A stretch of 64,000 bases of DNA from Calditrichia bacterium (GTDB lineage: Bacteria > Calditrichota > Calditrichia > RBG-13-44-9 > J075): positions 42,076 to 106,075 of the forward strand of contig JBOEGD010000022.1 in the NCBI GenBank assembly GCA_050633245.1, read 5' to 3'. How positions within the stretch are numbered: the stretch's first letter is position 1; the number at the start of each line of letters is the position of its first letter. Both the position numbers and the translations under genes were made by a program. The notes beneath the pieces were generated by a model. It saw only the letters and a program-made list of their open reading frames with translations, had not been told where the DNA came from and did no database searches. Below are positions 45,597-54,324 of the stretch, piece after piece.

Positions 45597-48242
45597 ATGA
45601 CCGAAATGAGTAAATTGAGACAAAAAAATATGAGTATCGCCCGGCAAAACGATCGCTTTGGTTTTATGCGTTCTCTGATTTGTGTGCTGCTGTGTGCCTT
45701 TTGCATAACCTCGCTTTATGCGCAGTCGGATTCTTATTCATCCGAAAATCAGCTCGACATCAACAATGCGACCTACGAGGAGATTGTAAAGCTGCCCGTG
45801 TCTCTGGCTATTGCCGAACGACTATATGAACGCATTCAGCGTAGCGGGCCGTTTACAAGTATCTTTGAGCTGCGTGAAATAGAAGGTATTAGTCAACGCG
45901 TTCTTTTGCGATTGAAACCGCTTGTTCGCATTGAGCCTTATGTCGCGCAAACCGAGCGAGAAAGTCGTATCGAAAACCTTTATGTAAAGCTGGATCGTTG
46001 GAGTGGCCGTGAAGGCACCAATCAGGCACTGGTAGACTCCTGGATTGAACAGGCACTTGAACCGGTAGATGTAAATACGATTAGCTTTGGTGAGCTACTG
46101 AATCTGCAGGGAGTTTCACCCGTAGATGCCGCTGCAATTATCAATTATCGCAATGAAGTGGGTAAAATATCCAGTGCTCGCGATATGCGTAGTATTCCAT
46201 ACCTATCCTACTTTGGCTATCGCAATGCCCGCGACTTCCTAAGCTTTAGCGAAAATCAGAAGAAGCGTGAGTTTCACGGTTCAATTCGCTTCCGGTCTAC
46301 AAATACACCGTTCTTTAGCGAAGAAGCCGAAGCCGGTGAAGATCTGGATTTACCTGCCGGTCAGGCAAACGATTATCCCGATTATTACACTCGCTTTGTT
46401 GGTAATATTGGCTCTGATATCAAAATTGGCTATTCATTCTGGCATGCGTTGGAAGAACCGGTTCTTAGCTACGACATCGCTGGTCTGGAAATTCCGCGTG
46501 CCAAATGGTATGTAGGTCTAGAAGACAAGAGCTGGGGTGCACTAAAGCTCAAGAAATTTTATGTTGGAAACTACTCGCTGGCATTTGGCGAAGGAATCGT
46601 TATGGAAAACACCGATTTCTTTACACCGCGTAAGACCGGCTTTGGCTTTCGTAAGCGTTTTATCGGCTTGTCTGGCGATAATTCCCGTACGCGTCAGTAT
46701 AAACTGACCGGCGCAGCAGCACAGTTTGGAATCGGCAAAGCTCACTTGTATCTCTTTGGCTCCTTCGATCAACGCGATGCCATTCTTGGCCGCGAGCCGA
46801 TTCTTGTCGGTGCTGAGGGCGAAGAAGAACTAATCAATCCGGTGAGCCATTTAATTGTGCTCGATCAGCGTTTCGAATATGCCCCTGATGACTCTGCCCG
46901 CATCCGCGCCGAGCTGCCGTGGCGAGATTCCGTGAAGGAATTGACCTATGGTTTTCACACTGCTTATGACATTCTGCCAACGACGCAGCTTGGCTTTACC
47001 TACTATGAGAGCGCTTACGACCGTCCGTTAAGACCGCCAACCACCGCCGAAGAAAGTGCCGACATTGTACTGCCTGCTGAAACACGCCAGATTGATTTCC
47101 CCGATAATGAAATCTTTAACTCTTACGGCGGCCGCGTCTCTGATGGAGAGAATCCGTTCTGGAGTGAAGCAAAAGCTTTCCGTCGCGTCTATGGACTTGA
47201 TTTCCGCTCGGTTTATGAGAATGTCTCTTTTCAAGCCGAATATGGAGAGCTTGATACCGGTGAAGGGCTTTCTCTTTTTGGAGCCAGTGGAGACAATCCC
47301 TGGGCCTTTACCGCCAGTGCCTATGTGCAGTACAATAATTTTAACTTCATGGGGCTGTATCGCAATTATCAGATAGGCTTCGACAATCCCTATCAGCGAT
47401 CGTTCTCCAACTATCGCCGCTTTAAACGCGGGGTATATGAAGACTATTTCTACCTGCAGTCCGGCCTGTATGGCCAGTTGTATTCAAACAATCCGCAGCC
47501 ACAGGCCGAAGAAGGATTCTATTTTCTCACTCGCTATCAGGTGAACCGCAAAACCACACTGACTGTTGAATACGATAACTGGTTGCGCAATGCCGATGAT
47601 GTGCCACAGTATCGCCTTCGTGGCACTCTGCAATTCCGACCGATTTTCCCGATAGATATTTCGTTACGTCAGAAGTATCAGGGACGCGAAGTACAGAACA
47701 ATCAAAGCATTGAATATTTTGAAAATCTGGAGTTTCGCGGCCGGGTGCGCTTTCGCCTGTCCCGCTTTAATAGTCTGAGCATTGACTATGGAAGTAATGC
47801 TGTAAAATTCCGCCCACGTCCGCGCCTGTTTTTTGGTACGGAGCCGGGATCAGAAACCGGACAGGATAACCTGGCTGGAAATGCCGCTATTGACGGTGAA
47901 TTTCTCGGTGGAAACTATACACACAATTTTAATGAATGGCTGAAAGTTAGTGGTGGACTCGTCTACTATCGCGGCTTTTACTGGACCTTTGAAGATACCC
48001 AATTCCTGGTGCTCGACAGCGATCGCGGTGCCATGCGATATTGGACCTCCTTCTATTCGCGTATCAGTAACCAGCTAAGCATGCGTTTAAAGTATTCACG
48101 TGATCGTCAGGCCGTTGGAACGTTTGCACAAACACGCGAGACGAATAATGATCCGGTTATTGAACCCGGCGTTGCCACAGAAGCCGACTACATTCAGGGT
48201 AAACAAGATGTCTTTTATCTCGAGCTTAATTACAATTTCTAA
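45597..48242 (+). CDS. Helix-hairpin-helix (ComEA-like, two copies) outer-membrane beta-barrel protein
   Basis: LDINNATYEEI...GPFTSIFELREIEGI and VDVNT....L..L.GV....A.AII.YR...G HhH_3-like domains; GNYSLAFGEGI; C-terminal YLELNYNF; start may be 45630 or 45666. Confidence 0.82.
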   Translation: MTEMSKLRQKNMSIARQNDRFGFMRSLICVLLCAFCITSLYAQSDSYSSENQLDINNATYEEIVKLPVSLAIAERLYERIQRSGPFTSIFELREIEGISQRVLLRLKPLVRIEPYVAQTERESRIENLYVKLDRWSGREGTNQALVDSWIEQALEPVDVNTISFGELLNLQGVSPVDAAAIINYRNEVGKISSARDMRSIPYLSYFGYRNARDFLSFSENQKKREFHGSIRFRSTNTPFFSEEAEAGEDLDLPAGQANDYPDYYTRFVGNIGSDIKIGYSFWHALEEPVLSYDIAGLEIPRAKWYVGLEDKSWGALKLKKFYVGNYSLAFGEGIVMENTDFFTPRKTGFGFRKRFIGLSGDNSRTRQYKLTGAAAQFGIGKAHLYLFGSFDQRDAILGREPILVGAEGEEELINPVSHLIVLDQRFEYAPDDSARIRAELPWRDSVKELTYGFHTAYDILPTTQLGFTYYESAYDRPLRPPTTAEESADIVLPAETRQIDFPDNEIFNSYGGRVSDGENPFWSEAKAFRRVYGLDFRSVYENVSFQAEYGELDTGEGLSLFGASGDNPWAFTASAYVQYNNFNFMGLYRNYQIGFDNPYQRSFSNYRRFKRGVYEDYFYLQSGLYGQLYSNNPQPQAEEGFYFLTRYQVNRKTTLTVEYDNWLRNADDVPQYRLRGTLQFRPIFPIDISLRQKYQGREVQNNQSIEYFENLEFRGRVRFRLSRFNSLSIDYGSNAVKFRPRPRLFFGTEPGSETGQDNLAGNAAIDGEFLGGNYTHNFNEWLKVSGGLVYYRGFYWTFEDTQFLVLDSDRGAMRYWTSFYSRISNQLSMRLKYSRDRQAVGTFAQTRETNNDPVIEPGVATEADYIQGKQDVFYLELNYNF

Positions 48243-48258
48243 TCAGGAGACGGCTACT

Positions 48259-49533
48259 ATGCGTCATATCCTTTGCGCCTTTATTTGTTTAACTGTGCTG
48301 TCGCTAAGCAGCATTGCGCAAAACCTCACTGCTTTTCCGGTGGGAGAAAACTGGCAGTTTACCGATGCGCGTACGCTCGGTATGGCTGGAAGCGGCTCCG
48401 TCTCCAACAGTGGTGCCGGTGCGTTGCTTATGAACCCTGCAGCTTTGGGGCGTGGAAGCGGCAGAATGGAACTGTCTGTTTCAACGACTTTACGCAATAT
48501 GGAAGAGCGGCGCTCATTCCCGGTGTTTAACCGCATTGATGATGTTACGACTAAAGGAATCTATGCGATAAACGATAACTGGTATGTACAGCCTCAGGGT
48601 GGTGCGCGTTATAATTTGAATCTTTCTGCGGTGCCGTTCCTGAAAGCCTTTGCGTTCGGAACCTATAATGAAGTAGATCAGGATTACAAATATCTGGAAG
48701 AAGTTCGCAGCCGGGATTTTAACGGAGAACGCTCTCCGTTGGCTTACAATCAGATTCAGTTTGAAGGCGATCTGACACGCTATAGTTTTGGAACAGCGCT
48801 TGGGCTTGGCAGCAAGCTCGATTTTGGCTTTCAATTAGGTTTCTTGAATGGCGATCTGGAGTCCAGCTCATCCGTTGACTTTCAGGCGGAAGAAAATCAG
48901 GCGAACAGCTTTCGCATACAGAACTTTCGTTCGTTAGACAATACGCCGTTGGTTGTCTCTGCTGGTGCAATTGTAGACGTTTCTCCGCAGCTGACGCTTG
49001 GTAGTCACGTTCGGCTTCCCTACAAGGTTGAATATGCCGTTTCTGTAGAAGGAACGGATGGCAGCACACCTGAGAGCTACGAATACCCGATGGCAATAAA
49101 TGTCGGCATGGAATACCGCGGTCGTCAAGAGCTTCAATCCAGCCTGAATGTAGATTTCAGCTATGAGCTGTGGAGTGAAACAGAATCAACTAAAGATGGC
49201 GTTGTTTTACCTAATTTGCTGGATGATGTCGTTACACTAAAAGGTGGAATTGAGCATATCTTCTACAATCAAATTCCACTACAGTTTGGATTACAATACC
49301 GCACCGCTTTGCAGGATCGACGTAGTAGTCGCACGCTGTTTTCTATAGGAAGTGGCTATGTAACCAAGCAGTGGCAAGTGGATGGCGCACTTGGCTTTAG
49401 CAAGCTCAGTTATACCGCTGAGGATTTATTCGATGATGCGCTGTTTGGCGGGGATCGATCTGGTAGCCCAATCGATGATGTTGAAGAACGTTATGTCTAC
49501 GGCATTATTACGCTGAAGATAAACTTCGAATAA
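48259..49533 (+). CDS. FadL-like outer-membrane beta-barrel protein
   Basis: AGGAG RBS, signal peptide, DARTLGMAG...NPAALG hatch motif, YP...G.EY, GGIE. Confidence 0.75.
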   Translation: MRHILCAFICLTVLSLSSIAQNLTAFPVGENWQFTDARTLGMAGSGSVSNSGAGALLMNPAALGRGSGRMELSVSTTLRNMEERRSFPVFNRIDDVTTKGIYAINDNWYVQPQGGARYNLNLSAVPFLKAFAFGTYNEVDQDYKYLEEVRSRDFNGERSPLAYNQIQFEGDLTRYSFGTALGLGSKLDFGFQLGFLNGDLESSSSVDFQAEENQANSFRIQNFRSLDNTPLVVSAGAIVDVSPQLTLGSHVRLPYKVEYAVSVEGTDGSTPESYEYPMAINVGMEYRGRQELQSSLNVDFSYELWSETESTKDGVVLPNLLDDVVTLKGGIEHIFYNQIPLQFGLQYRTALQDRRSSRTLFSIGSGYVTKQWQVDGALGFSKLSYTAEDLFDDALFGGDRSGSPIDDVEERYVYGIITLKINFE

Positions 49534-49578
49534 TCTGTATTTATTTTGGTCGGGCGGTTTTTAAGCCTCCGCCTGGCC

Positions 49579-49761
49579 TGTGGCATATGCCCCAAACCCT
49601 CCTTCTTTTTGTGCTATAATCCCCATTTCCGCTATTCTCTTCATCTCTTCCTGTTGCTGTGTGTTTTGTTTGCTGCCCTTGTTTTTATTGGGTTTAGGGT
49701 TGGCAAACCTGCCTTTTTGCTAATTGTTTTCTCTCTTTTCCCGAATTGGCACAGGAATTGA
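49579..49761 (+). promoter_or_regulatory. Sigma54-type promoter with two phased upstream activator-like sites
   Basis: TGGCACAGGAATTGA at 49747-49761; TGTGGCATATGCCCCA (49579) and TGTGCTATAATCCCCA (49610), 31 bp apart; T-rich tract in between. Confidence 0.6.
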
Positions 49762-49772
49762 AATATATCTGG

Positions 49773-50069
49773 GCAGTTCATTGAAAGACAAGTTTCTACC
49801 TCGGCACGTTACTGCGAAAATGAAGGCAAGCTGAATGGGGCGCAGTAGTTTTGATTTTTGATTGTGTAACGTGTCGTGGCAGGAACTTCTCTTGGAGATT
49901 CCAAAAGATTTTGCAGGAAATTCTATCATGACACGTTTCTGATGGGTAGAGTTGGTTCAAGCTGAATGGGGCGCAGTAGTTCTGGCTTCCAGATGGACGT
50001 GTCATGATGGAAACCTGCTTAATTGCAAAAAGAAACGCCATTGGTTCGGGTTGAGCCAATGGCGTTTCT
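49773..50069 (+). ncRNA. Candidate structured ncRNA: two homologous long hairpins with an identical 24-nt motif, then a terminal hairpin
   Basis: CAAGCTGAATGGGGCGCAGTAGTT at 49827-49850 and 49958-49981, each enclosed by 17-20-bp stems; only very short + strand ORFs; boundaries inferred from the promoter and hairpin. Confidence 0.6.
50027..50069. terminator. Strong hairpin, likely bidirectional terminator
   Basis: AGAAACGCCATTGG-N11-CCAATGGCGTTTCT with an A run on its left side. Confidence 0.8.
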
Positions 50070-50091
50070 GCGTTCTATAATTTTTAAAGCT

Positions 50092-50853
50092 TTATTCTTC
50101 TGTGGGAAGGATGTACCAAACGCTGGAGAAATATTTGCTATCCCATTCCTTGCGCTCAAGATCGACTGAAATATTAGTCAGTAGGGTTCCACTATTCCAA
50201 ATGACATGACCGCTGTTATTTTCGCTGGGTTCCTGAGTAGTGAGCTCGCATTTCTTAAGACCAGCCTTATATCCATTAACCGGCTTGAAAAAATCTACGC
50301 GAACCCGATTTACTTTGTTTTTCAGCTTATCGATAAACAGCGTAATGCCGTGCTCAACCTTCTGCTGCGATTCTGTAACGACATCCAGAACAATAACCTC
50401 GTGGCTTCCCAATCCAATATCTTTAAAGAATAGCTCGTAGGAACCACTGGTTTCCTGTCGTTTGCTACCTTGCTGAGAAAATATGTTTTGGAAGAATTCT
50501 ACCGACTTGAACTTTTCTTTCTTCTGGTCCAGATAGAAATTAGGGCCATATAAGTTCAGTGCCTCATAACCCACAGATGGTGCCCAAATATAGGCCTCTT
50601 TAAAGCGCTTGTTACTAAACTGAACCCAGTTTCCTACTCTGCGCAGAACCGTGATCTCTGCATTTTTTCGAAGCGACCCAAGGCGCTTGCCGTTTGGCAG
50701 GGCGCGTACGTTTTCAGAATTGACCTGAACCATTACAGGACGCCCGGCATCTGTTGTAAGTGATTCAGTTGGCGAGGTTGTTGGTTTTGCCGTTTTGGGC
50801 TGGCAGCCTAATAGAAAGAATGTTGCTAATATCAAGAGTAGTTGCAGCTTCAT
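50092..50853 (-). CDS. Lipoprotein with bacterial SH3 domain
   Basis: Lipobox LLGC; ENVRALPNG..LG.L....I.VL...GNWV....AYIW SH3b pattern. Confidence 0.78.
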   Translation of the reverse strand: MKLQLLLILATFFLLGCQPKTAKPTTSPTESLTTDAGRPVMVQVNSENVRALPNGKRLGSLRKNAEITVLRRVGNWVQFSNKRFKEAYIWAPSVGYEALNLYGPNFYLDQKKEKFKSVEFFQNIFSQQGSKRQETSGSYELFFKDIGLGSHEVIVLDVVTESQQKVEHGITLFIDKLKNKVNRVRVDFFKPVNGYKAGLKKCELTTQEPSENNSGHVIWNSGTLLTNISVDLERKEWDSKYFSSVWYILPTEE

Positions 50854-52452: not shown

Positions 52453-54324
52453 ATGGTTCTTCTCCGTGTTATCGCAATACTCTTGCTGTCGGGTTTGCTG
52501 TATGGACAAACGTCCCTGCCGGAGGATGAGGTGATCGCTGTGCAGGCGGGTGATTATTTTAGCCGACTTCAGGAGCTAAGCGAAAACCCCCTTGATATGA
52601 ATAAGGCCTCGGCAAGACAGCTTCGGGACATTCCCTTTTTGAATCGAAAACTTATTTCAGCTATACTGAATTATCGCCGTAAAACAGGGGAATTTCAAAC
52701 CGTTGATGAGCTGCTTCGTATTAATGGAGTCTCCGGTGAGCTATTGGAAGCGATGCGTGCCTACCTGCAAGTTGAAGCTAAACCGAGAGCGCTAAGGCTG
52801 GTTTATGACCAGCGCCTAGCCGCTACGGCACATAAAACGCGTGCGTATGTAAGAGATCTATATGGCAGTCGCCTTGCAATAAGACAACGCTTTTTGCTGC
52901 AAATGGAGGATCGATTTAAGTTCATTCTCCAAACGGAAAAAGACGCTGGCGAACCAAACTGGCGAGATCACGTTTCCGGCTCGGCAGCTATTGAGTTAAG
53001 ACGGTTGCACAGCCATGTTGTTTTGGGTGATTATTATGCCTGGTTTGCACAAGGCTTGATCTCAGGTGGTGCTTATGGTAAACGCCTGACTGCAGGAAGT
53101 GGGCACTCTGCTTTGATTCCGGGCATGCTTCGAGTGCGTCAAAAAACCGGAGCGGATGAGTTCGCTTTTTTACGCGGCATTAGTTGGCAAGTTCAACCAA
53201 TCGAGCCGTTGCAGCTAACCACACTGGTTTCTGTTCGCAAGCTGGATGCTGTTTTGTCAGAAGACTCTCTTACTGTTTTGCGCTTGGTGAATACGGGATT
53301 TCATCGCAGTGAGAGTGAACTGGCGCGACGTAACAGTCAAAGGGAAAAACGTCTTGCATTAGCGGCCACGCTCAATTTAAAAGCCTTCTCTATTGGCGCG
53401 CTCTATCAAATAAATCAATATTTCAAAAAGCAACAGTTTACAGGCTTAACATCTGAAGGCGGATGGAGCGGTAGCATCGCATTTTCCTATCGAACTGAAA
53501 GTTGGAAGCAGTCGGTGGAACTTGCTCGGGGAATCCGAGGCAGAGCACTAATGGCAAGTGTTGTAACACAATCTATGGGAATGCGCTTTGGTGCCGGTGT
53601 TTTTTATTATTCTCCTCTTTTTATCTCTCCCCATGGTCGGCGTTTTGGTGCATTTGGACAATCACCTGCAAATCGCTTTGGTGTTCAGCTGTTACAAAAT
53701 CTTATCCTGCCGGCAGCGCTTCGCGTTAGTATTCACCTCGAGGCCGGCAGGCCGGTACAGCCCGAAGTGGCATTTCCGATTACGTCCTGGGCAGCGAGTG
53801 CGTATGCAGAGCAACGCTTTAAGCGGATCGTCTGGAAATTGCGATATAGTCAGCGCTCTTCTGGAAATGAGGAGCTTCAGCGAGACAGGCTACCGGTTCG
53901 GCGTCGATTGCGTCTGGATTTGGAATATCAACCAAACAAGCGTTTGCGGCTTAGTCAGCGAATTGATTTTAGCCGTGCATTGGGCAAAAGCTATGGTATT
54001 GCCTTGCAGAACGACCTTCGCTATCGCGTTACTTCTTTCGGGAATATACAATTCCGTTATACGCATTTTGACGTACCGGATTTCGATTTGCGGCTATATG
54101 AGCTTGAAACGGGCTTGCCCGGAGAATTGGAGACGCGGTTGTTAAATGGGTTTGGCTATAAGTGGTTTGCACTTGCGACAGTATCCCCTGTCGATTATTT
54201 GCAAGTTGGGCTAAAGTATCGGGTTGAATACTATCCGGATGAGCAGACATTGGGAAGCGGAAATGATTTAATCGATGGAAATGCACGACGATTTTTGCGC
54301 GGCTACCTGCGATTGAAGTGGTAG
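52453..54324 (+). CDS. Helix-hairpin-helix (ComEA-like) outer-membrane beta-barrel protein
   Basis: PLDMNKAS...L..IP.L....AILNYR...GEF..V.EL..I.GV HhH; EKDAGE and GDY...FAQGL motifs; C-terminal YLRLKW; GGAGG RBS. Confidence 0.85.
   Translation: MVLLRVIAILLLSGLLYGQTSLPEDEVIAVQAGDYFSRLQELSENPLDMNKASARQLRDIPFLNRKLISAILNYRRKTGEFQTVDELLRINGVSGELLEAMRAYLQVEAKPRALRLVYDQRLAATAHKTRAYVRDLYGSRLAIRQRFLLQMEDRFKFILQTEKDAGEPNWRDHVSGSAAIELRRLHSHVVLGDYYAWFAQGLISGGAYGKRLTAGSGHSALIPGMLRVRQKTGADEFAFLRGISWQVQPIEPLQLTTLVSVRKLDAVLSEDSLTVLRLVNTGFHRSESELARRNSQREKRLALAATLNLKAFSIGALYQINQYFKKQQFTGLTSEGGWSGSIAFSYRTESWKQSVELARGIRGRALMASVVTQSMGMRFGAGVFYYSPLFISPHGRRFGAFGQSPANRFGVQLLQNLILPAALRVSIHLEAGRPVQPEVAFPITSWAASAYAEQRFKRIVWKLRYSQRSSGNEELQRDRLPVRRRLRLDLEYQPNKRLRLSQRIDFSRALGKSYGIALQNDLRYRVTSFGNIQFRYTHFDVPDFDLRLYELETGLPGELETRLLNGFGYKWFALATVSPVDYLQVGLKYRVEYYPDEQTLGSGNDLIDGNARRFLRGYLRLKW

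What the first reader, a model, noticed from the sequence alone, without database searches (positions are those of the whole stretch)
49579..50069. Sigma54-type, ORF-free transcript of two homologous hairpins displaying an identical 24-nt sequence: candidate novel ncRNA
Seen: two phased UAS-like sites (49579, 49610), a -24/-12 element (49747-49761), then ~300 bp with only tiny + strand ORFs, closed by a strong hairpin (50031-50069). Unit 1: GTTTCTACCTCGGCACGTTA (49792-49811) pairs with TAACGTGTCGTGGCAGGAAC (49867-49886). Unit 2: TTCTATCATGACACGTT (49921-49937) pairs with GACGTGTCATGATGGAA (49996-50012), extended by GCAGG/CCTGC. The two stems are homologous but differ by compensatory changes (a C-G pair versus a T-A pair). 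The enclosed CAAGCTGAATGGGGCGCAGTAGTT is identical in both units (131-nt period), while its flanks have diverged. Inference: selection acts on both structure and the displayed sequence. It could be a multivalent protein sponge or base-pairing sRNA (CrcZ and Qrr are known sigma54-dependent sRNAs), or a precursor cut into two identical guide-like RNAs. I do not recognise it as a known family.
Basis: partly seen in the sequence, partly recalled or inferred. Interest (0 to 1): 0.75.

Follow-up and report, generated by a model that had tools for sequence, protein, structure and literature searches.

The report
Two-hairpin sigma-54 small RNA gene
This gene-free stretch most likely encodes a regulatory RNA of about 300 bases with two look-alike hairpins that carry the same 17-letter tip, switched on by the sigma-54 system in a little-studied marine bacterial lineage; it is a new RNA family of a familiar kind.

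Summary
Window 49773-~50080 (+) folds into two homologous long hairpins plus a 17-bp terminal hairpin (z -8.7). The 24-mer occurs exactly twice. The locus is single-copy in its 6.3-Mb genome and matches no Rfam family.

A syntenic orthologue sits on one metagenome contig, L062, whose flanking proteins are about 79% identical. It keeps:
- the TGGCAC-N5-TTGA promoter (17 of 20),
- an upstream CTGTGGCATAT site (16 of 19),
- both hairpins, with 11 of 23 pairs changed on both sides,
- AGCUGAAUGGGGCGCAG, invariant in all four units.

Four-fold codon sites in the neighbouring genes are only 36-44% identical.

TTGA/TTGT/TTGC -12 elements are the genome's real sigma-54 signal: 77 of 223 hits are intergenic, and 18 of those 77 lie next to activator genes. 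The same enhancer 11-mer precedes a sigma-54 promoter beside one activator gene that drives OmpA/BON envelope genes.

No homologue was found in 85 other genomes of the phylum. Expression and partner are untested. The closest analogue is Pseudomonas NrsZ.

Verdict: a real, selected, probably sigma-54-dependent sRNA. It is a new family of a known kind.

The parts
49578..49594 (.). Candidate enhancer (UAS) site 1, CTGTGGCATATGCCCCA, an imperfect palindrome about 169 nt upstream of the -24 element
   Evidence: Palindrome found. It is 16 of 19 identical in L062 while the surrounding spacer is 32-47% identical. The 11-mer CTGTGGCATAT occurs 4 times in the genome, and one other copy lies 174 nt upstream of a sigma-54 motif beside an activator gene.
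49610..49625 (.). Possible second enhancer site, TGTGCTATAATCCCCA, 31 nt after site 1 (weak)
   Evidence: 11 of 16 identical in L062. A second site at +30 also exists at the C14 activator locus. The TATAAT look-alike is not conserved.
49747..49761 (+). Sigma-54 -24/-12 promoter, TGGCAC-N5-TTGA
   Evidence: Read. The 20-nt block is 17 of 20 identical in L062. The motif class is validated in this genome. rpoN and 33 strong activator genes are present.
49773..50080 (+). Predicted transcript of about 305 nt. The start is inferred 12 nt after the -12 element; the end is at or after the terminal hairpin.
   Evidence: Inference from promoter geometry. Fold z -8.66. The orthologous RNA has the same architecture, z -9.42.
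49785..49893 (+). Hairpin unit 1: a basal stem of about 23 bp with bulges, a middle helix and an apical hairpin
   Evidence: Model R1 scores it 123 bits; the L062 orthologue scores 78.8 bits, E 7e-18. Covariation.
49829..49845 (+). Invariant core, copy 1: AGCUGAAUGGGGCGCAG. Predicted 4-bp stem GCUG/CAGU with the 9-nt loop AAUGGGGCG.
   Evidence: Identical in all 4 units of the 2 organisms. Loop bases have unpaired probability 0.82-1.00.
49894..49911 (+). Variable linker between the units; holds a small window-specific hairpin
   Evidence: 2 of 18 columns identical and 16 gaps against L062. Five of the 8 differences in strain X7 lie within 49894-49911.
49912..50021 (+). Hairpin unit 2, homologous to unit 1
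   Evidence: R1 scores it 119.9 bits; the L062 orthologue scores 32.2 bits, E 6.6e-6.
49960..49976 (+). Invariant core, copy 2
   Evidence: The apical fold is less certain than in unit 1.
50031..50069 (.). 17-bp hairpin with the loop GGGUU: a likely bidirectional terminator shared with the convergent 253-aa lipoprotein gene (50092-50853, -)
   Evidence: The stem changes are compensatory and the loop is conserved in L062, where a U-run follows on the RNA strand. The consensus terminator scan did not list it.

Best explanation
This is an orphan gene for a trans-acting regulatory RNA of about 300 nt.

How it is switched on. An enhancer-binding protein bound at CTGTGGCATAT, about 170 nt upstream, activates sigma-54 RNA polymerase at TGGCAC-N5-TTGA. 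Transcription starts near 49773 and ends at the 50031-50069 hairpin. My candidate activator is the 458-aa protein at G000 C14:172244-173620.

What the RNA looks like. It consists of two homologous scaffold hairpins. Their basal stems are free to change as long as they stay paired. Each holds up the same apical element, AGCUGAAUGGGGCGCAG (stem GCUG/CAGY, loop AAUGGGGCG).

How it works. The RNA acts through this twice-displayed element as a bivalent binding platform. I commit to a sequence-specific RNA-binding protein, bound as two copies or a dimer and thereby titrated or bridged, as the most likely partner. I take the RNA to be part of a lineage-specific sigma-54 envelope-type regulon of OmpA/BON and BON-LysM genes.

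Shown: the anatomy, the conservation, the compensatory changes, and the validity of the promoter class.
Inferred: the transcription itself, the identity of the activator, the regulon, and the kind of partner.

Layered odds:
- real selected structured RNA gene: 0.85
- sigma-54-dependent: 0.75
- acts through the displayed core: 0.7
- partner is a protein rather than an RNA: about 0.5 of that
For: (1) Selection.
- The 4-fold codon sites of the two flanking genes are 42 of 96 and 65 of 179 identical between the window and L062.
- Against that background, the core is 17 of 17 in both units, the -24/-12 block 17 of 20, UAS1 16 of 19, unit 1 73%, the terminator 72% and the linker 11%.

(2) Structure.
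- On the 4-unit alignment, 95.7% of cells pair, against 26-56% when the partners are slid.
- 11 of 23 pairs have changes on both sides, and 0 of 500 shuffles reach this.
- The + strand folds 35 kcal/mol better than the - strand.
- The L062 RNA folds the same way, z -9.42.

(3) Near-identical strains in three runs.
- The listed stem changes 49854 A>G, 49874 T>C and 50009 G>A all keep their pair.
- Five of the 8 differences in X7 lie in the linker (49894-49911) and a sixth, 49889, in the adjacent bulge.
- No listed change touches either core. All 8 of 8 X7 differences are listed, but only 5 of 9 for X1 and 8 of 11 for X2.

(4) The units are old. Non-core identity is 68% for u1-u1, 49% for u2-u2, and 50% and 31% for the paralogue pairs. 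Core identity is therefore not a recent duplication.

(5) Promoter class.
- TGGYAY-N5-TTG[A/C/T] is intergenic in 77 of 223 cases, where 10.7% of the genome is intergenic.
- 18 of those 77 lie within 3 kb of an activator gene, against 3.4% expected.
- The reversed control motif is intergenic in 13 of 110 cases, with 0 near activators.
- rpoN is present, with 33 strong Sigma54_activat matches.

(6) Activator link.
- CTGTGGCATAT occurs 4 times in the genome.
- The copy at C14:173629 has a second site at +30. It lies 174 nt upstream of a sigma-54 motif, directly after an activator gene, and drives OmpA/BON and LapA-like genes.
- A related site, CTGTGCGATATGCCGCA, lies 145 nt upstream of a sigma-54 motif that drives DUF4332 and BON-LysM genes.

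(7) Protein rather than RNA partner.
- The invariance covers both strands of the apical stem as well as the loop. The closing pair switches G-U to G-C, so the stem forms and yet its sequence is fixed.
- Two copies are kept.
- Complementary 8-10-mers are not enriched at translation starts.
- The best duplex energy, -25.1, lies within the range of 10 shuffled cores, -23.4 to -28.4.
- Hfq and ProQ were not found in a 97% complete genome.
Against: - No transcript has been seen.
- No protein partner is identified, and no known RNA-binding motif was recognised in the core.
- Only two orthologous loci plus three near-identical strains exist. The covariation therefore rests on 4 related units, and the shuffle control does not correct for their relatedness.
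- The apical fold of unit 2 is not consistent: the window prefers GCU/GGC with a hexaloop, and L062 is heterogeneous.
- The terminal hairpin was not called a terminator by the scan, and in the window it lacks a clean U-run on the + strand.
- The activator link rests on 1 of the 3 other copies of an 11-mer. My rough hand estimate of chance is 0.001-0.005. The second site is weakly conserved.
- One listed strain change (49790 A>T in X2) breaks a basal pair.
- A failed search for mRNA targets is weak evidence, because true sRNA targets often do not stand out.
Confidence: 0.4

Rival explanations
1. Same gene and same promoter, but the partner is RNA, as proposed for NrsZ. The 9-nt G-rich loops (AAUGGGGCG) form kissing or seed pairings with C-rich stretches of one or more mRNAs, or with C-rich seeds of other sRNAs (a sponge of sRNAs). 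RNase III may first cut the long stems and release two equivalent short stem-loops.
For: - Most characterised bacterial sRNAs act by base pairing (general knowledge).
- NrsZ is RpoN-dependent and has 1-6 similar stem-loops with an identical loop. It is processed to short active stem-loops (passages of PMC4253122).
- Loop bases are predicted unpaired in 3 of 4 units.
- RNase III is encoded, and the basal stems are about 23 bp.
- One 12-nt perfect complement to the core lies 63-74 nt upstream of a DPP-IV-type peptidase gene at C12:34419.
Against: - Complementary 8-10-mers are not enriched in 4872 start-codon windows.
- The best duplex energies are no better than those of 10 shuffled cores.
- The top 10 candidates share no theme.
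- The single 12-mer match is within chance. About 10 such matches are expected genome-wide by my estimate, and 4-5 were seen.
- A G-rich seed is unusual for targeting ribosome-binding sites.
- Invariance of 17 nt, including both strands of a stem, is more than a seed needs.
Confidence: 0.33
2. The hairpins act in cis or locally rather than as a diffusible regulator. They could be a structured transcription insulator and terminator region between convergent genes. Alternatively, sigma-54-driven transcription could read through into the convergent 253-aa lipoprotein gene as an antisense RNA.
For: - The terminal hairpin is shared with the convergent gene and has a U-run on the - strand.
- In the window the + strand U-run is poor, so read-through is conceivable.
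- The scan did not call it a terminator.
Against: - An insulator needs neither a conserved sigma-54 promoter and enhancer nor a 17-nt core invariant in four units.
- In L062 the hairpin is followed by UUUUUUAUU on the RNA strand.
- The flanking genes are not neighbours in any of the 14 family genomes that have both. The element is therefore tied to neither gene.
Confidence: 0.07
3. The conserved core encodes the start of small peptides (AUG GGG CGC AG = MGRS...), or the upstream CT-rich spacer encodes a small hydrophobic protein that starts at the GTG inside the 'UAS' (MAY...).
For: - The core contains an AUG.
- Unit 1 of both organisms has AAGG 8 nt upstream.
- Both organisms have a GTG-started ORF beginning MAY at the UAS, of 47 and 71 aa.
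Against: - The peptides from the four cores are 8, 13, 27 and 18 aa long and share only MGRS (and my reading).
- The conservation covers third codon positions and the 8 nt before the AUG.
- The MAY ORFs differ in length and share almost no sequence after residue 3. They lack a ribosome-binding site and lie in a spacer that is 47% identical with 20 gap columns.
- The 131-nt period is not a multiple of 3.
Confidence: 0.04
4. It is a DNA-level element: a remnant of a mobile element, a recombination site or a hairpin-forming repeat left at a rearrangement junction. It has no RNA function.
For: - The locus sits at a synteny break. The two flanking genes lie on different contigs or far apart in family relatives.
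- Distribution is very narrow: 0 of 36 other genomes of the order with R2, and only chance-like hits in 85 other genomes of the phylum.
Against: - It is single-copy.
- The compensatory changes include G-U pairs that work only on the + strand: -128.5 against -93.0 kcal/mol.
- It has a conserved promoter and terminator.
- It is under purifying selection although neutral sites are near saturation.
- No transposase or integrase lies next to it (Pfam of the five neighbours).
Confidence: 0.04

Closest known systems
NrsZ of Pseudomonas (passages of PMC4253122 read)
   Same: - Orphan intergenic gene with an RpoN (-24/-12) promoter that depends on an enhancer-binding protein.
- The transcript is made of tandem, similar stem-loops.
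- Each stem-loop shows an identical loop sequence.
- The spacers between the units are variable.
- The conserved loop is the presumed active part.
   Different: - No sequence or Rfam-level similarity.
- The loop is AAUGGGGCG, not ACAGGCAG.
- The units are about 107 nt with basal stems of about 23 bp, rather than about 40-nt stem-loops.
- There are two units here; NrsZ has 1-6.
- The gene is not next to its activator: none of the Sigma54_activat matches is on contig C22.
- Different phylum.
- Processing and target are unknown here.
GlmY/GlmZ of Enterobacteriaceae (search listing and start of the abstract of PMC3045617; their mechanism is recalled, not read)
   Same: Sigma-54-dependent sRNAs with upstream activator sites. 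One of them (GlmY) acts as a protein decoy through a structured hairpin (recalled).
   Different: They are two separate homologous genes rather than two modules in one RNA. There is no sequence similarity. They control amino-sugar metabolism.
CsrB/RsmZ and CrcZ protein sponges (recalled; CrcZ is named as RpoN-dependent in the NrsZ paper)
   Same: One RNA carries repeated copies of a short motif displayed in hairpins and titrates a protein. CrcZ is sigma-54-dependent. CsrA is encoded in this genome.
   Different: - The displayed motif has no GGA and is not A-rich.
- The GGA triplets in the transcript lie mostly in paired arms and are not conserved in L062 (my reading).
- Hfq was not found.
- There are only two copies.
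Qrr sRNAs of Vibrio (search listing of PMC10162802 and 10.1101/2021.07.01.450815)
   Same: Orphan sRNA genes driven by sigma-54 and an enhancer-binding protein.
   Different: Qrr are short, single-seed, Hfq-dependent RNAs (recalled). They have no tandem homologous hairpins, and Rfam gives no match here.

Membership tests
Sigma-54-dependent promoter | GG at -24 and a TTGN -12 element at the fixed 5-nt spacing of TGGCAC-N5-TTG | tested here: met
   TGGCAC-N5-TTGA at 49747-49761. A at the -12 position is as enriched in intergenic DNA (30 of 85) as C (19 of 51) in this genome, whereas G is not (5 of 87).
Sigma-54-dependent promoter | The element is conserved in orthologous loci | tested here: met
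   17 of 20 identical in L062, within a spacer that is 47% identical. Only one orthologue is available.
Sigma-54-dependent promoter | The organism has RpoN and enhancer-binding proteins | tested here: met
   Sigma54_DBD at 198 bits on C4. 37 Sigma54_activat matches, 33 of them at E 4.5e-56 or better.
Sigma-54-dependent promoter | An upstream enhancer site bound by a cognate activator | tested here: inconclusive
   A conserved palindrome lies 169 nt upstream. The same 11-mer lies 174 nt upstream of a sigma-54 motif beside an activator gene. Binding was not tested.
Sigma-54-dependent promoter | The transcript start depends on rpoN | not testable with these tools
   No RNA data. The one RNA run laid gave 0 reads and is no test.
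NrsZ family | Sequence and structure match to the family model, and the loop motif ACAGGCAG | tested here: not met
   No Rfam family matches at gathering score in the 64 kb. At E up to 10, only 3 chance hits of 13.9-17.7 bits. That Rfam holds an NrsZ model is recalled, not checked. The loop here is AAUGGGGCG, against the motif quoted.
NrsZ family | Tandem similar stem-loops with an identical loop, behind an RpoN promoter | tested here: met
NrsZ family | The gene lies next to ntrC, and the RNA is processed into short stem-loops | tested here: not met
   No activator gene lies on contig C22. Processing cannot be tested.
CsrB/RsmZ-type CsrA sponge | Many GGA motifs exposed in hairpin loops | tested here: not met
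   The conserved loops hold no GGA. The GGA triplets lie mostly in paired arms and are not conserved (my reading). CsrA itself is present.
MITE / REP-type dispersed repeat | Many copies scattered in the genome | tested here: not met
   One locus only, by BLAST and by covariance models R1 and R2.
Intrinsic (Rho-independent) terminator | A GC-rich stem followed by a U-run on the transcript strand | tested here: inconclusive
   The 17-bp stem is present. The scan did not list it. The window tail is GCGUUCUAUAAUUUUU, and L062 has UUUUUUAUU directly after the stem.

The most novel reading that the evidence does not exclude
The RNA is one half of a so far unknown RNA-protein regulatory pair in a phylum that appears to lack Hfq and ProQ. 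Two rigid scaffold stems present an identical 17-nt hairpin that captures, or bridges two copies of, a dedicated sequence-specific RNA-binding protein. This places a lineage-specific sigma-54 envelope regulon under post-transcriptional control. A bolder variant is that RNase III dices the two 23-bp stems into identical guide-like small RNAs. That variant is less likely, because no Piwi-domain protein was found.
Probability: 0.3. Interest if true: 0.65.

Novelty: new member of a known kind. Interest (0 to 1): 0.45.

Why it matters
Regulatory RNAs are almost uncharted in this phylum. A 2022 review table lists a single annotated sRNA for Calditrichaeota (PMC9029176, Table 1, seen through).

This locus offers a clean, testable case. 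It has a validated promoter class, a candidate activator and co-regulated envelope genes. It also has an RNA whose design points to a specific partner that could be fished out: evolvable scaffold stems and a frozen, twice-displayed tip.

The result also shows that in this genome the sigma-54 -12 element is TTG followed by A, T or C rather than the textbook TTGC. That matters for anyone annotating sigma-54 regulons in such lineages.

The limits are plain. The family is known from two organisms plus near-identical strains, nothing is known about its expression, and the architecture has a precedent in NrsZ.

Tried and rejected
Homologue searches that found nothing useful:
- DNA search of 40 relatives: 0 hits.
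- R1 in 15 other family genomes: only one hit, at E 0.62.
- R2 in 36 other genomes of the order: 0 hits. Only 107 first-look candidates per genome were scored, so weak matches could be missed.
- 17-mer with up to 1 mismatch in 85 other genomes of the phylum: 3 hits. All lie in what reads as coding DNA, with no second copy and no flanking arms, so I judged them chance.
- Exact 20-mer in genome contigs and in metagenome contigs: 0 hits each. The L062 core differs at letter 18, which is why it was missed.

Expression: no RNA holder was listed. The polyA RNA run X22 gave 0 laid reads and is no test.

Target prediction gave no signal and no theme.

Alternative promoter: the sigma-70 scan found nothing on the + strand. 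The TGCTATAAT at 49612-49620 is not conserved in L062.

Alternative cross-unit fold: the 3' arm of unit 1 could pair with the 5' arm of unit 2 (I4). By my reading, the L062 stems have diverged from each other and do not keep this pairing, so I rejected it.

CRISPR-like array: rejected. There are two repeats only, they are embedded in hairpins, and the spacing is 131 nt.

Guide RNA for an Argonaute: no Piwi domain found.

Orthologues of the OmpA/BON target gene in the family: none full-length in 15 genomes. The candidate regulon therefore could not be traced in relatives.

Literature: no paper holds the core sequence or its complement. Searches for sRNAs of Calditrichota or Caldithrix gave nothing specific. 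The Caldithrix genome paper does not mention sigma factors or non-coding RNA (term search). Supplements were not opened.

- The rest of the L062 contig could not be searched.
Full report
WHAT IS THERE. Between a 427-aa gene ending at 49533 (+) and a convergent 253-aa gene ending at 50092 (-) lies a 558-nt gap. NCBIfam gives the 427-aa protein only weak, sub-threshold likeness to outer-membrane barrels (BamG, PorV). The 253-aa protein has an SH3_3 hit below Pfam's cut-off and a lipoprotein-like N-terminus.

The gap holds, in order:
- an imperfect palindrome, CTGTGGCATATGCCCCA (49578-49594);
- a weaker related site 31 nt further on;
- a CT-rich spacer;
- TGGCAC-N5-TTGA (49747-49761);
- two long hairpins (49785-49893 and 49913-50018);
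- a 17-bp hairpin (50031-50069).

The repeat finder gives a 27-nt direct repeat, 96% identical, at a spacing of 131 nt. The 24-mer occurs exactly twice in the window, and no shuffle produced a match. The + strand folds to -128.5 kcal/mol (z -8.66) and the - strand to -93.0. This fits G-U pairs that exist only in a + strand RNA.

NOT A KNOWN FAMILY, NOT A DISPERSED REPEAT.
- Rfam 15 has no match at gathering score anywhere in the 64 kb.
- At E up to 10 the 801-nt region gives three hits of 13.9-17.7 bits, against gathering scores of 40-52.
- The own genome (G000: 6.35 Mb, 59 contigs, 45% GC, 97% complete) holds this locus once. Short-word BLAST of each unit and of the core finds only chance matches of 12-18 nt elsewhere.
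- Two covariance models find only this locus in G000. Their only other hits are the reverse strand of unit 1 and, for R1, one E 0.2 hit on C1.

WHO CARRIES IT. The closest named relatives of the upstream protein are MAGs titled Calditrichia or Calditrichaceae, at 44-48% identity. The genome therefore probably belongs to that phylum.

No homologue of the RNA was found in any of these searches:
- 40 relatives by DNA;
- 15 other family genomes with model R1;
- 36 other genomes of the order with R2;
- 85 other genomes of the phylum with the 17-mer at up to 1 mismatch. The three hits lie in what reads as coding sequence without hairpin context.

The two flanking genes have orthologues in 14 of 15 family genomes each, but these are never adjacent. 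The RNA gene therefore sits at a lineage-specific junction.

THE ORTHOLOGUE. A protein-guided scan of metagenome contigs found one 1.05-Mb contig (L062) whose 253-aa orthologue is 79% identical. Directly downstream, in the same arrangement and followed by the 427-aa orthologue, model R1 finds both units at E 7e-18 and 6.6e-6. The aligned intergenic regions show a mosaic, measured:

| Segment | Identity, window vs L062 |
|---|---|
| Core, both copies | 17 of 17 |
| -24/-12 block | 17 of 20 |
| UAS1 | 16 of 19 |
| Second site | 11 of 16 |
| Unit 1 | 73% |
| Terminator | 72% |
| Unit 2 | 57% |
| Spacer | 47%, with 20 gap columns |
| Linker | 2 of 18 |
| 4-fold codon sites, flanking genes | 42 of 96 and 65 of 179 |

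The 4-fold sites are close to saturation, so the conserved blocks are under purifying selection. The L062 RNA folds into the same two hairpins plus terminator (z -9.42).

STRUCTURE. I aligned the four units (A4) and used a hand-written structure of basal stems plus the apical GCUG/CAGY helix. The results:
- 95.7% of cells pair, against 26-56% when the partners are slid by 1-3 columns.
- 11 of 23 pairs have changes on both sides.
- 0 of 500 shuffles reach the observed values.

The four units are related and few, so this is good support rather than statistical proof.

Outside the core, orthologous units are more alike (68% and 49%) than the paralogue pair in L062 (31%); the window's paralogue pair is at 50%. 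The duplication is therefore old, and the identity of the core is maintained rather than recent. The letter after the core is U in both window units and C in both L062 units. It switches the closing pair from G-U to G-C. This shows that the apical stem forms, and it hints at concerted evolution.

In unit 1 of both organisms the ensemble predicts a 4-bp stem with the 9-nt loop AAUGGGGCG unpaired (0.82-1.00). Unit 2 is less clear.

NEAR-IDENTICAL STRAINS. Contigs of three public runs (X1, X2, X7) cover the RNA at 2.5-3.2% divergence (9 of 358, 11 of 364 and 8 of 249 letters). Some flanking coding pieces differ by up to 14%.

Among the listed differences:
- 49854 A>G, 49874 T>C and 50009 G>A each turn one standard pair into another.
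- 49790 A>T (X2) breaks one basal pair.
- 49789 and 49889 are bulges.
- Five of the eight X7 differences fall in the inter-unit linker (49894-49911), and 49889 lies in the bulge next to it.
- No listed difference lies in either core.

All 8 X7 differences are listed. Only 5 of 9 for X1 and 8 of 11 for X2 are listed, so for those two runs the statement is incomplete.

PROMOTER. The -12 element is TTGA, not the textbook TTGC, so I tested the class in this genome. I used a crude gene map built from the longest non-overlapping ORFs (4872 ORFs, 89.3% coding). Results for TGGYAY-N5-TTGN:

| Last base | Intergenic hits |
|---|---|
| A | 30 of 85 |
| T | 28 of 87 |
| C | 19 of 51 |
| G | 5 of 87 |

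The expectation from the intergenic share of the genome is 10.7%.

Further results:
- Of the 77 intergenic A/T/C hits, 18 lie within 3 kb of one of the 33 strong activator genes, against 3.4% expected.
- The reversed control motif is intergenic in 13 of 110 cases, with none near an activator.
- The genome has rpoN and 33 strong Sigma54_activat matches.

The promoter call is therefore well founded, and a start near 49773 follows from its geometry. No convincing sigma-70 promoter precedes the RNA. The scan finds none on the + strand, and the TGCTATAAT inside the second 'UAS' is absent from L062.

A CANDIDATE ACTIVATOR AND REGULON (inference).
- CTGTGGCATAT occurs four times in the genome.
- Besides the RNA locus, one copy (C14:173629) lies 10 nt after the stop of a 458-aa activator gene. 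That protein has a sigma-54 AAA+ domain and an HTH_8 domain; its N-terminal 145 aa match no Pfam family.
- That copy has a second site, CTGTGGGATAT, at +30. It sits 174 nt upstream of TGGCAT-N5-TTGA, which drives a 401-aa OmpA/BON protein and a 162-aa protein with a marginal LapA-domain hit.
- The RNA locus has the same layout, with its site 169 nt upstream and a second site at +31.
- A related palindrome, CTGTGCGATATGCCGCA, lies 145 nt upstream of another sigma-54 motif, which drives a DUF4332 protein and a BON-LysM protein.

By my rough hand estimate, the chance that one of three other 11-mer copies falls 60-300 nt upstream of one of 77 promoters is 0.001-0.005. These products suggest an envelope or osmotic theme, and the RNA gene itself lies among envelope-type genes. 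The OmpA/BON gene has no full-length orthologue in the 15 other family genomes. The regulon thus looks as lineage-specific as the RNA.

WHAT THE RNA DOES.

Coding is rejected. No ORF on either strand is shared between the two organisms. The AUG inside the core opens peptides of 8, 13, 27 and 18 aa that share only MGRS. The period is not a multiple of three.

The design is a pair of evolvable scaffold stems, a frozen 17-nt tip and two copies. This says that the tip is the working part.

Searches for an RNA partner gave nothing above background:
- RNAduplex of the 17-mer against 4872 start-codon windows gives a best value of -25.1 kcal/mol, within the range of ten shuffled cores (-23.4 to -28.4).
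- Complementary 8-10-mers are not enriched at starts.
- The ten best candidates have no common theme.
- One 12-nt complement lies upstream of a DPP-IV-type peptidase gene, but it is within chance.

On protein partners:
- Hfq and ProQ were not found; CsrA is present.
- The tip has no GGA, and the GGA triplets of the transcript lie mostly in paired arms and are not conserved. A CsrA sponge is therefore not supported.

The invariance covers both strands of a stem that demonstrably forms, and two copies are kept. For these reasons I favour a sequence-specific protein partner (a bivalent decoy or platform) slightly over loop-mediated base pairing of the NrsZ type. The margin is small (0.40 against 0.33). 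RNase III is encoded and could release the two tips. No Piwi-domain protein was found.

COMPARISON WITH WHAT IS KNOWN. The nearest analogue is NrsZ of Pseudomonas. It is RpoN- and NtrC-dependent, is built of 1-6 similar stem-loops with an identical loop motif separated by variable spacers, and is processed into short active stem-loops (passages of PMC4253122).

The present RNA works like that in outline but is not a member of the family. It has a different loop, much longer stems and no Rfam match. It is not next to its activator, and it comes from another phylum. GlmY/GlmZ, Qrr and CrcZ share the sigma-54 dependence only.

No paper in the searched library contains the core sequence. A 2022 review lists one annotated sRNA for the phylum.

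VERDICT. This is a real, conserved, structured and very probably sigma-54-dependent sRNA gene. It is a new family with narrow distribution, of a known architectural kind, and its expression and partner are still to be shown.

Noticed in passing
G000 genome-wide; window example 49747-49761: In this genome the sigma-54 -12 element is TTG followed by A, T or C (intergenic 30 of 85, 28 of 87 and 19 of 51) but not G (5 of 87). The textbook TGGCAC-N5-TTGC occurs only 10 times in the whole genome. Annotation pipelines that require TTGC would miss most of the regulon.
   Followed up: yes
G000 C4:103317-103333 (-), C8:9706-9722 (-), C18:87639-87655 (-), C26:26490-26506 (+); outside the window: These are further sigma-54 motif hits with no same-strand gene downstream. 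The first three are followed within about 75-230 nt by a GC-rich hairpin plus a T-run (fold z -4.2, -2.1 and -3.4). Two of them sit beside activator genes. They may be further sigma-54-dependent sRNAs.
   Followed up: partly
G000 C14:170399-175533 (locus L067): The candidate activator gene is preceded by genes for a 138-aa protein with only weak, sub-threshold Pfam hits, a 288-aa protein with no family, and a 175-aa Ras-family small GTPase. It is followed by OmpA/BON and LapA-like genes. The activator's N-terminal 145 aa match no Pfam family. A GTPase-coupled input to a sigma-54 activator would be unusual.
   Followed up: partly
window 49612-49620: A perfect extended -10 look-alike, TGCTATAAT, overlaps the second UAS-like site. 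It is absent from the orthologue, which has TCAAATT at that position, so it is probably not a promoter.
   Followed up: yes
window 50048-50052 and L062 4805-4809: The 5-nt loop GGGUU and the three closing pairs of the shared terminator hairpin are identical in both organisms. The rest of the 17-bp stem changed by five compensatory pairs.
   Followed up: no
window 45597-48242 (+) and 52453-54324 (+): Two large proteins (881 and 623 aa) with ComEA-type HHH_3 domains flank the locus. One gene of the candidate regulon (DUF4332) also has helix-hairpin-helix motifs. This may be coincidence.
   Followed up: no
window 49534-50091 versus family genomes: The 427-aa and 253-aa genes that flank the RNA have orthologues in 14 of 15 family genomes each, but always on different contigs or megabases apart (for example G008 at 6.06 Mb against 3.58 Mb). 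The RNA gene therefore marks a rearrangement junction that only L062 shares.
   Followed up: partly
window 49892-49904: The window's inter-unit linker forms a small 5-bp hairpin (UUGGA/UCCAA) that is deleted in L062. In strain X7, G49894>A is matched by C49902>U, which keeps that pair, but G49895>A is not compensated.
   Followed up: no
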